Of a DNA stretch of 64,000 nucleotides, positions 10,463-10,544 are shown one piece after another. The stretch lies in sequence record PQ821640; one strand, 5' to 3'. This DNA comes from Escherichia phage SD2. Below the pieces are notes generated by a model, which searched no databases, had not been told where the DNA came from, and saw nothing but the letters and a program-made list of their open reading frames with translations. Positions within the stretch are counted from its first letter, which is position 1, and every line of letters starts with the position of its first letter. Made by a program: the position numbers and the translations under genes.

Positions 10463-10544
10463 CGGGGTGTATCTCACCTGACTTCTAATCAGGCGTTAAC
10501 CGAGTAATTGGAGTATGCAGGTTCGAATCCTGTCACCCCGACCA
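10463..10544 (+). tRNA. tRNA-like element, anticodon-type hairpin TCT, structure unresolved
   Basis: Canonical T-arm GCAGG-TTCGAAT-CCTGT, acceptor CGGGGTG/CACCCCG with CCA, perfect hairpin CCTGA-CTTCTAA-TCAGG, but no room for a D-arm and a 23-nt variable region. Confidence 0.3.

What the first reader, a model, noticed from the sequence alone, without database searches (positions are those of the whole stretch)
10463..10544. tRNA-like element with no room for a D-arm
A canonical T-arm and a 7-bp acceptor with CCA flank a perfect anticodon-type hairpin (CCTGA-CTTCTAA-TCAGG, anticodon TCT), but only 7 nt separate acceptor and anticodon stem and about 23 nt follow the anticodon stem. It is either a highly atypical Arg tRNA, a pseudo-tRNA, or a tRNA-derived regulatory RNA.
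Basis: seen in the sequence. Interest (0 to 1): 0.55.

Follow-up and report, generated by a model that had tools for sequence, protein, structure and literature searches.

The report
Phage arginine tRNA with rewired D-arm
This is very probably a working arginine tRNA gene of an E. coli phage, and it belongs to a large, unannotated, virus-only class of tRNAs in which the usual D-arm hairpin is replaced by a long-range helix that encloses the anticodon arm.

Summary
Window 10463-10544 (+) has a 7-bp acceptor stem, ACCA tail, consensus T-arm and a perfect anticodon arm (UCU). Only 7 nt lie before the anticodon arm and 23 nt after it. The window is a phi92-like E. coli phage, and the element sits in its tRNA cluster behind its own near-consensus promoter.

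It is neither a pseudogene nor a chance match. Related elements occur in 258 GenBank phage records and in many uncultivated viral contigs, and I parsed 127 distinct sequences of the class. Only 4 copies turned up in 185,579 bacterial and archaeal genomes, all on metagenome-assembled contigs.

All four helices covary. C11-N12-N13 of the "7-nt linker" pairs with N40-N41-G42 inside the "23-nt tail": 50/50 sequences pair, with UA/GC/AU/CG exchanges. The energetically preferred "variable hairpin" does not covary.

I infer that this short helix stacks on the anticodon stem as a D-stem with swapped strand connectivity. The following UAAYUGGAGUAU would then act as the D-loop (A14, R15, G18, G19, A20).

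Members with GG-A carry only Arg anticodons (100/100). Members with GG-U carry only Ile anticodons (27/27).

Best reading: a functional, non-canonical tRNA-Arg(UCU) for AGA codons. I found no prior description.

The parts
10422..10451 (+). Sigma-70-type promoter-like site: TTGACA (10422-10427), 18-nt spacer with TG, TATAGT (10446-10451). It would start transcription a few nt before the acceptor stem.
   Evidence: 11 of 12 consensus matches, the best site in 10000-11000. Function as a promoter is inferred.
10463..10544 (+). Whole gene: non-canonical tRNA-Arg(UCU), 82 nt including the encoded CCA.
   Evidence: Rfam tRNA 40 bits; family model R1 100.3 bits.
10463..10469 (+). Acceptor stem, 5' strand (CGGGGTG).
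   Evidence: Pairs with 10534-10540. 99.4% of cells paired in 50 relatives, and all 7 pairs show changes on both sides.
10470..10472 (+). Junction U8-A9-U10, invariant UAU in the window's subfamily.
   Evidence: Equivalence to U8 and A21 of a standard tRNA is inferred.
10473..10475 (+). 5' strand (C11 U12 C13) of the long-range 3-bp helix, the D-stem equivalent.
   Evidence: Pairs with 10502-10504. 50/50 relatives pair at each position: 12:41 is UA31/GC10/AU9 and 13:40 is CG40/GC6/UA4. In the wider class 12:41 pairs in 97/98 with all four Watson-Crick types.
10476..10476 (+). A14, the single nucleotide between the long-range helix and the anticodon stem (position-26 equivalent).
   Evidence: Stands opposite position 39 mostly as A-C or C-A (68 of 98). 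A non-Watson-Crick pair is inferred.
10477..10493 (+). Anticodon arm CCTGA-CTTCTAA-TCAGG; anticodon TCT at 10484-10486, with U33 and A37 in place.
   Evidence: all 5 pairs show changes on both sides.
10494..10501 (+). Bulge CGTTAACC between the anticodon stem and the 3' strand of the long-range helix. CGUUAA is the signature of this subfamily.
   Evidence: Members found through a 5'-side pattern that did not specify this motif still carry it in 44 of 47 cases. Docking in the groove of the short helix is speculation.
10502..10504 (+). 3' strand (G40 A41 G42) of the long-range helix.
10505..10516 (+). D-loop-like segment TAATTGGAGTAT. Proposed equivalents: A14, A15, Y16, U17, G18, G19, A20, and U48 immediately before the T-stem.
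   Evidence: It resembles the D-loop AGTTGGATA of a canonical phage tRNA-Arg(UCU) in L045. The base after GG sorts with the anticodon: A with Arg (100/100), U with Ile (27/27). The tertiary contacts are inferred.
10517..10533 (+). T-arm GCAGG-TTCGAAT-CCTGT.
   Evidence: 99.2% of cells paired.
10534..10544 (+). Acceptor stem 3' strand (10534-10540), discriminator A (10541) and encoded CCA (10542-10544).
   Evidence: CCA is encoded in 75 of 100 relatives.

Best explanation
The element is a transcribed, functional tRNA-Arg(UCU) gene of a phi92-like E. coli phage. It supplies decoding of AGA, a codon that is frequent in the phage and rare in the host.

It belongs to a phage-restricted structural class of tRNAs that has no D hairpin. 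Instead, nucleotides 11-13, just after U8-A9-U10, pair with nucleotides 40-42 on the far side of the anticodon arm. This gives a 3-bp helix that encloses the anticodon arm plus a bulge.

Only one nucleotide separates this helix from the anticodon stem on the 5' side. It must therefore stack directly on the anticodon stem, where the D-stem sits in a normal tRNA, but with the two strands connected the other way round.

The chain then leaves the top of that helix as UAAYUGGAGUAU. I read this as a D-loop (A14, R15, G18, G19, A20) that runs straight into the T-stem and lets the usual D-loop/T-loop elbow form.

What is shown:
- conservation and covariation of all four helices;
- the link between the base after GG and the anticodon;
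- genomic context and phage restriction.

What is inferred:
- the L-shaped 3D fold and its tertiary contacts;
- charging by host ArgRS through C35, U36, A73 and the A20 equivalent;
- use on the ribosome.

Why phages use this fold is not known. Evasion of host factors that read the D-arm is a guess.
For: (1) All the tRNA parts except the D hairpin are present and score as tRNA.

(2) The element lies in a cluster of 15 canonical tRNA genes on the same strand, behind an 11/12 consensus promoter.

(3) Fifty distinct relatives pair in 99.4% (acceptor), 95.6% (anticodon) and 99.2% (T) of cells, and 16 of those 17 pairs show changes on both sides.

(4) Helix 11-13:40-42 pairs in 50/50 sequences at each position, with UA/GC/AU and CG/GC/UA exchanges. 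In a wider set, 12:41 pairs in 97/98 with UA37/GC25/CG23/AU12, and no shuffle out of 2000 reached the observed pairing. In the GAU-anticodon members the otherwise fixed C11-G42 becomes A-U.

(5) Anticodons among 100 distinct GG-A members are UCU 73, ACG 17, CCU 5, UCG 4 and GCG 1, all Arg. The 27 GG-U members carry UAU 25 and GAU 2, all Ile, and all have discriminator A. Neither search pattern specified the anticodon. A20 and C35 are the major E. coli ArgRS identity elements, and A73 is an Ile identity element (established knowledge).

(6) The window has no other tRNA-Arg. AGA makes up 27.8% of Arg codons in its long ORFs, 11.3 per 1000, against roughly 2 per 1000 in E. coli (established knowledge).

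(7) In 83 related loci, 69 have canonical tRNAs within 1.5 kb. A canonical tRNA-Arg(UCU) was called by ARAGORN next to a UCU member only once (L045). In L010 the odd copy has UCG beside a canonical UCU. In L061 the odd copy has CCU, and the UCU tRNA beside it is another copy of the odd architecture.

(8) Phage restriction: many hits in the viral collection, against 3 intact and 1 interrupted copy in 185,579 prokaryotic species genomes, all on MAG contigs.
Against: No expression, processing or charging data exist.

The nearest-neighbour energy model does not favour the long-range helix. For the window sequence it gives -21.2 kcal/mol with the helix, -22.5 without it, and -26.1 for the competing variable hairpin. 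RNAalifold predicts only three arms. The helix therefore rests on covariation alone.

The helix is short. In the non-CGUUAA subfamilies position 13:40 pairs in only 32/49.

The motifs CGTTAA, GTAA and GGAGTAT were part of the first search pattern, so their invariance in alignment A1 is partly by construction. A 5'-side pattern that left them free still recovered them in 44 of 47 true members.

The 3D model is geometric reasoning, not a computation.
Confidence: 0.8

Rival explanations
1. A D-armless tRNA with a class-II-like variable hairpin. Here the 7-nt linker is an unstructured connector, as in metazoan mitochondrial tRNA-Ser, and the 23-nt tail folds into CCGA-GUAA-UUGG, as the energy model predicts.
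For: This is the MFE and centroid structure of the window sequence: -26.1 kcal/mol, z = -1.97. It is 4.9 kcal/mol better than the long-range helix in the nearest-neighbour model.
Against: Across 50 relatives the hairpin pairs in only 70.4% of cells. Pair 41:46 is unpaired in 26 sequences and 39:48 in 15, and only one cell shows a change on both sides. RNAalifold drops the hairpin. Other subfamilies have tails too short or too different to form it. It also uses nucleotides 40-41, which covary perfectly with 12-13.
Confidence: 0.06
2. A tRNA-like RNA that is not used for translation, for example a decoy or sponge for a host tRNA-directed nuclease or another tRNA-binding defence protein, or a regulator.
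For: The fold is non-standard and phage-restricted. Phage tRNAs are known to counter tRNA-cleaving defences (established knowledge). In one locus a canonical tRNA-Arg(UCU) sits right beside it, which looks redundant.
Against: Anticodons are confined to Arg and Ile and sort perfectly with the base after GG and with the discriminator. That is what synthetase recognition predicts, not what a decoy needs. The window has no other tRNA-Arg although AGA is 27.8% of its Arg codons. The acceptor stem, T-arm, CCA, U33 and purine 37 are all kept.
Confidence: 0.1
3. A decaying tRNA pseudogene that lost its D-arm by deletion.
For: ARAGORN misses it, and it is unannotated in almost all GenBank records.
Against: More than 100 distinct sequences from unrelated phage groups (Escherichia, Salmonella, Klebsiella, Vibrio, Proteus, Pectobacterium and Streptomyces phages) keep every helix through compensatory changes. 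They also keep the linker and tail motifs.
Confidence: 0.01
4. An ordinary cloverleaf tRNA that the reader mis-registered.
For: It passes the Rfam tRNA gathering score.
Against: The Rfam alignment itself deletes the D-arm, matching 15 model positions to 4 nt. No tool gives a cloverleaf. Seven nucleotides cannot hold a D-arm.
Confidence: 0.01

Closest known systems
Canonical bacterial and phage tRNA-Arg(UCU), e.g. E. coli argU, phage T4 tRNA-Arg, and the canonical copy in locus L045
   Same: Same anticodon loop (CUUCUAA or UUUCUAA), the same type of T-arm, and a 7-bp acceptor stem with A/G73 and CCA. It shares the D-loop-like sequence UUGGA with A after GG. It has the same presumed job, reading AGA for an AT-rich phage.
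   Different: There is no D hairpin between positions 10 and 25. The two strands of the D-stem equivalent lie on either side of the anticodon arm, and the D-loop-like segment runs directly into the T-stem. Standard tRNA finders miss it.
D-arm-lacking mitochondrial tRNAs of metazoa (tRNA-Ser for AGY/N; nematode mt tRNA-Ser(UCU))
   Same: No D hairpin. A short connector lies between the acceptor and anticodon stems.
   Different: Those tRNAs are organellar and AT-rich, have degenerate or short T-arms and lost the D-loop/T-loop contacts (PMC7609411, PMC4013460). They work with co-evolved factors (PMC4013460). This class keeps a consensus T-loop, a GG motif and a covarying long-range helix, and it must work with an ordinary bacterial translation apparatus.
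Class II tRNAs (Ser, Leu, bacterial Tyr) and allo-tRNAs (Mukai et al., PMC5389517)
   Same: Long region between anticodon stem and T-stem. Allo-tRNAs show that bacteria and phages do carry tRNAs with non-standard cloverleaves.
   Different: In those the extra region is a self-contained hairpin and the D-arm is present. Here the hairpin is not supported and the extra region supplies one D-stem strand and the D-loop. The acceptor/T configuration is the normal 7/5.
Permuted and split tRNA genes (Cyanidioschyzon, Nanoarchaeum)
   Same: The order of tRNA parts along the chain differs from the standard.
   Different: In those the gene is rearranged but the mature RNA is a normal cloverleaf after processing. 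Here the gene is collinear with a single RNA whose own topology differs.

Membership tests
tRNA (Rfam RF00005 / standard cloverleaf) | Score at or above the Rfam gathering threshold | tested here: met
   40.0 bits against 29.
tRNA (Rfam RF00005 / standard cloverleaf) | 7-bp acceptor stem, discriminator, 3' CCA | tested here: met
   10463-10469 pairs with 10534-10540; A at 10541; CCA at 10542-10544. The stem covaries.
tRNA (Rfam RF00005 / standard cloverleaf) | 5-bp T-stem with a T-loop of consensus UUCRANY | tested here: met
   GCAGG-TTCGAAT-CCTGT.
tRNA (Rfam RF00005 / standard cloverleaf) | 5-bp anticodon stem, 7-nt loop with U33 and purine 37 | tested here: met
   CCTGA-CTTCTAA-TCAGG. All five pairs covary.
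tRNA (Rfam RF00005 / standard cloverleaf) | D-arm hairpin (stem 10-13/22-25 closing the D-loop) between acceptor and anticodon stems | tested here: not met
   Only 7 nt are available. Rfam deletes the arm, and ARAGORN does not call the gene.
tRNA (Rfam RF00005 / standard cloverleaf) | Aminoacylation and use on the ribosome | not testable with these tools
   Needs experiments.
tRNA-Arg identity (E. coli ArgRS rules: C35, U36/G36, A20, A/G73; established knowledge) | C35 and U36 or G36 | tested here: met
   The anticodon is UCU in the window. All 100 GG-A members carry NCU or NCG anticodons.
tRNA-Arg identity (E. coli ArgRS rules: C35, U36/G36, A20, A/G73; established knowledge) | A20 in the D-loop | tested here: inconclusive
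   There is no true D-loop. An A follows GG (10513), as A20 follows G18-G19. GG-A goes with Arg in 100/100 and GG-U with Ile in 27/27. Spatial equivalence has not been shown.
tRNA-Arg identity (E. coli ArgRS rules: C35, U36/G36, A20, A/G73; established knowledge) | Discriminator A or G | tested here: met
   A at 10541. Across the class the counts are G47, A31, U20, C2.
Metazoan mitochondrial D-arm-lacking tRNA | D-arm replaced by an unpaired connector, and loss of the conserved D-loop/T-loop elements | tested here: not met
   The connector nucleotides 11-13 covary with 40-42. The T-loop consensus and the GG motif are retained.
Class II tRNA (long variable arm) | A conserved, covarying stem-loop between the anticodon stem and the T-stem | tested here: not met
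   The candidate hairpin 38-41/46-49 pairs in 70.4% of cells with essentially no compensatory change. RNAalifold does not predict it.
The new class proposed here (tRNA with a strand-swapped D-stem) | UAU/UAY junction, a 3-bp helix 11-13:40-42 enclosing the anticodon arm, a bulge of 3-8 nt, then UAAYUGG-N and the T-arm | tested here: met
   The window element scores 100.3 bits with model R1 built on this structure. All features are present.

The most novel reading that the evidence does not exclude
Phages carry a previously undescribed topological isomer of tRNA. The L-shape is kept, but the chain is threaded differently. The acceptor stem feeds straight into what is spatially the 3' strand of the D-stem and on into the anticodon stem. 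The other D-stem strand and the D-loop come after the anticodon arm and run into the T-stem.

The class serves at least two identities, Arg (mainly UCU for AGA) and Ile (mainly UAU for AUA). The same bulge subtypes occur with either identity, which suggests switches between UCU with A20 and UAU with U20.

It works with unmodified host synthetases, EF-Tu and ribosomes. It may have spread because the altered D-region escapes a host factor that recognises the D-arm.
Probability: 0.45. Interest if true: 0.9.

Novelty: new variant of a known kind. Interest (0 to 1): 0.8.

Why it matters
Outside animal mitochondria, elongator tRNAs are taken to share one cloverleaf. Gene finders, annotation pipelines and structural reasoning about synthetases, EF-Tu and the ribosome all assume it.

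A widespread viral class that drops the D hairpin yet apparently works with a normal bacterial translation system would have several consequences:
- Phage tRNA repertoires are systematically under-counted. None of the 60 GenBank records listed annotates this gene as tRNA-Arg, and only one annotates a tRNA there at all.
- The tRNA core could be built with a different strand topology, which bears on RNA folding and on tRNA engineering.
- It would be a natural test of how ArgRS and IleRS read position 20 and the D-region.
- It may point to a host factor that phages avoid by changing the D-arm.

The claim can be tested directly with E. coli phages that are already in culture (phi92 relatives, Felix O1 relatives).

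Tried and rejected
- ARAGORN in mitochondrial mode gave a 62-nt 'mtRNA-Arg' at 10449-10510 in a different register that ignores the T-arm and acceptor stem. I rejected it as spurious.
- ARAGORN at a lowered threshold or with introns allowed did not call the element.
- An Rfam E-value scan of 10280-10610 gave nothing credible apart from tRNA. FtrB, PreQ1, TUG1 and a plastid UTR all scored far below their thresholds.
- The MFE variable hairpin failed the comparative test.
- The scan with GTATC...CTTCTAA...CG returned mostly chance matches. Only 47 of 139 were true members, so I used it only as a check on motif conservation.
- Nine full-text literature searches, including literal sequence strings and phrases for D-arm-lacking tRNAs in phages, found no description. 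D-arm-lacking tRNAs appeared only for metazoan mitochondria. Neither of the two papers on non-canonical tRNA structures that I checked describes such a tRNA. The library lacks most subscription journals, so this is not proof of novelty.
- I did not try protein-based tools, because the element overlaps no credible ORF.

Full report
**Observation**

The sequence at 10463-10544 (+) reads:

CGGGGTG TAT CTC A CCTGA CTTCTAA TCAGG CGTTAACC GAG TAATTGGAGTAT GCAGG TTCGAAT CCTGT CACCCCG A CCA.

Exactly 7 nt precede the anticodon arm and 23 nt follow it. Rfam's tRNA model passes its gathering score (40.0 against 29 bits), but only by deleting the D-arm. ARAGORN does not call the gene. Relaxed, intron-allowing and mitochondrial modes give nothing in the right register.

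**Context**

The window is more than 97% identical to phi92-like E. coli phages of the genus Justusliebigvirus. The element lies in a same-strand cluster of 15 canonical tRNA genes (10089-13525). It sits between tRNA-Leu(UAA) and tRNA-Ser(UGA).

An 11/12 sigma-70 consensus site lies just upstream: TTGACA at 10422, 18 nt, TATAGT ending at 10451. No credible ORF covers the element.

The stretch is unannotated in phage muut. None of the 60 GenBank records listed annotates it as tRNA-Arg. One Klebsiella phage labels it 'tRNA-OTHER'.

**Relatives**

A distant BLAST of 121 bases found 258 phage records. These include Justusliebigvirus, Felixounavirus, Sugarlandvirus, 350-380-kb jumbo coliphages, ~145-kb Klebsiella and Proteus phages, and Vibrio, Pectobacterium and Streptomyces phages.

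A pattern scan of IMG/VR with the tail motif returned 93 stretches. Of these, 51 were distinct true members.

The same pattern on one genome for each of 185,579 bacterial and archaeal species gave 51 stretches. Only 3 were intact members and 1 was interrupted, all on MAG contigs. The class is therefore essentially viral.

**Secondary structure**

I aligned 50 distinct sequences (A1). The acceptor, anticodon and T stems pair in 99.4%, 95.6% and 99.2% of cells. Sixteen of those 17 pairs show changes on both sides.

The key result concerns C11-N12-N13 of the linker, which pairs with N40-N41-G42 of the tail:

| Pair | Types seen (50 sequences) | Unpaired |
|---|---|---|
| 11:42 | CG 50 | 0 |
| 12:41 | UA 31, GC 10, AU 9 | 0 |
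| 13:40 | CG 40, GC 6, UA 4 | 0 |

The MFE structure of the window sequence instead closes a hairpin, CCGA-GUAA-UUGG. Across the family that hairpin pairs in only 70.4% of cells. It is unpaired in 26 sequences at 41:46 and shows essentially no compensatory change. RNAalifold drops it.

The caveat is that thermodynamics does not predict the long-range helix either. The nearest-neighbour model gives -21.2 kcal/mol with it, -22.5 without it and -26.1 for the hairpin. The helix rests on covariation alone. Real D-stems are likewise weak and held by tertiary contacts (established knowledge).

**Wider class**

A covariance model of this structure (R1) finds one member in the window at 100.3 bits, with the next hit at 28.6. 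In the held loci it also picked up divergent relatives with shorter bulges.

A pattern on the D-loop-like segment plus the T-arm, with the anticodon left free, sampled the broader class. I parsed 100 distinct members from independent landmarks: acceptor complementarity, T-arm and anticodon hairpin.

- Pair 11:42 forms in 98/98.
- Pair 12:41 forms in 97/98, with UA37, GC25, CG23 and AU12.
- Pair 13:40 forms in 81/98.
- No shuffle out of 2000 reached the observed pairing.
- The bulge between the anticodon stem and the 3' strand varies from 3 to 8 nt. It is CGUUAANN in the window's subfamily and UGAAA, AGAAA, AGUA or UCA elsewhere.
- Position 14 faces position 39 mostly as A-C or C-A (68/98).

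**Topology (inference)**

Only one nucleotide (A14) links the 5' strand of the short helix to the 5' strand of the anticodon stem. The helix must therefore stack directly on the anticodon stem, with pair 13:40 next to it. That is the place the D-stem occupies in a normal tRNA.

The connectivity, however, is swapped. The strand that continues into the anticodon stem (spatially 22-25, then 26, then 27) comes straight from the acceptor stem through U8-A9-U10. The partner strand (spatially 10-13) comes from the 3' end of the anticodon stem through the bulge.

The chain then leaves the top of the helix as U-A-A-Y-U-G-G-A-G-U-A-U. This matches the D-loop AGUUGGAUA of a canonical phage tRNA-Arg(UCU). 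The proposed equivalents are A14, R15, Y16, U17, G18, G19 and A20, with the last U before the T-stem in the place of Y48.

The alternative would keep the standard strand assignment. That would need one nucleotide to span the whole length of the D-stem, which is not feasible. All tertiary contacts (U8-A14, R15-Y48, G18-psi55, G19-C56) are proposals, not results.

**Identity and function**

Among the 100 members whose GG is followed by A, the anticodons are UCU 73, ACG 17, CCU 5, UCG 4 and GCG 1. All are Arg.

A second scan required a non-A base after GG. Its 27 true members all have GG-U, carry anticodons UAU (25) or GAU (2), which are Ile, and have discriminator A. Their helix pairs in 27, 27 and 26 of 27, and C11-G42 becomes A-U in the GAU members.

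Neither pattern constrained the anticodon, so the split is a real correlation. It is what one expects if GG-N corresponds to G18-G19-N20, because A20 and C35 are the main ArgRS identity elements in E. coli (established knowledge). The same bulge subtypes occur with both identities, which suggests switches between UCU with A20 and UAU with U20.

The window has no other tRNA-Arg. AGA makes up 27.8% of Arg codons in its long ORFs, whereas it is rare in E. coli (established knowledge).

In 83 related loci, 69 have canonical tRNAs within 1.5 kb. ARAGORN called a canonical tRNA-Arg(UCU) beside a UCU member only in L045. In L010 the odd copy has UCG next to a canonical UCU. In L061 the odd copy has CCU, and the neighbouring UCU tRNA is itself of the odd architecture.

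These points favour a decoding tRNA over a decoy.

**Comparison with the known**

The element is a tRNA by every defining feature except the D hairpin.

- It is not like mitochondrial D-arm-lacking tRNAs, which lose the D/T-loop elements and, per PMC4013460, rely on co-evolved factors (PMC7609411, PMC4013460).
- It is not a class II tRNA, because the hairpin is not supported.
- It is not a permuted or split gene, because the RNA itself has the new topology.

Nine full-text searches, including literal sequence strings, found no description. Neither of the two papers on non-canonical tRNA structures that I checked describes such a tRNA. The searchable library omits most subscription journals, so prior description cannot be ruled out.

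**Verdict**

- The element is real, conserved and structured. I consider this near certain.
- The long-range D-stem-like helix is strongly supported by covariation.
- Function as tRNA-Arg(UCU) is likely, at about 0.8.
- The strand-swapped L-shape model is plausible but untested.
- The reason phages favour this fold is unknown.

I rate it a new variant of a known kind, with interest 0.8.

Noticed in passing
window 10284-10389 (+): A second unannotated tRNA-like element lies between tRNA-Leu and the finding. It has a 7-bp acceptor stem (GCCTAGT/ACTAGGC) and a T-arm (TATGG-TTCGATT-CCATA), but about 65 nt in between that do not form a clean cloverleaf. ARAGORN calls it only with introns allowed, as 'Asn(gtt)' with an 18-nt intron. 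It is conserved almost only in Justusliebigvirus, in 31 records.
   Followed up: partly
L010 5506-5585, and L365, L366, L373, L378, L382, L386, L405, L423, L437 and others: The same D-hairpin-less architecture exists with Ile anticodons: UAU (25 distinct) and GAU (2). All have GG-U in place of GG-A and discriminator A. A tRNA-Ile(UAU) would read AUA without lysidine.
   Followed up: partly
L156 (- strand, 5' part at 2171 of the reverse complement) and L204 (5' part at 1458): Two family members are interrupted, and their matching 3' parts lie about 780-830 nt downstream. In L204 the inserted stretch holds another intact member of the class. This looks like a mobile insertion or intron within the tRNA gene.
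   Followed up: partly
window 11272-11356 (+): The tRNA called Asn(GUU) is 85 nt, with a 3-bp D-stem and a long variable arm (class II shape). That is unusual for an Asn anticodon.
   Followed up: no
window 13367-13444 (+): A weak tRNA-Trp(CCA)-like element lies just upstream of tRNA-Ile. It is seen only at a lowered ARAGORN threshold and scores 19.7 bits with model R1. Its acceptor stem has several mismatches.
   Followed up: no
window 12845-12923 (+): tRNA-Met(CAT) is 79 nt, has a low Rfam score (33 bits), an unpaired 1:72 position (C opposite U) and a weak T-stem.
   Followed up: no
window 10563-10592 (+): A second TTGACA-type promoter-like site lies directly upstream of tRNA-Ser(UGA). This suggests that individual tRNA genes in this cluster have their own promoters.
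   Followed up: no
GenBank MG065645, MG065639, MG065656, MG065689: Records named 'Campylobacter phage' of ~146 kb are about 97% identical to this E. coli phi92-like region. The host label is probably wrong, or the records are contaminated.
   Followed up: no
L045 1522-1692 (- strand): A canonical tRNA-Arg(UCU) and a non-canonical one sit 12 nt apart on the same strand. This is the only such pairing among the 83 loci.
   Followed up: partly
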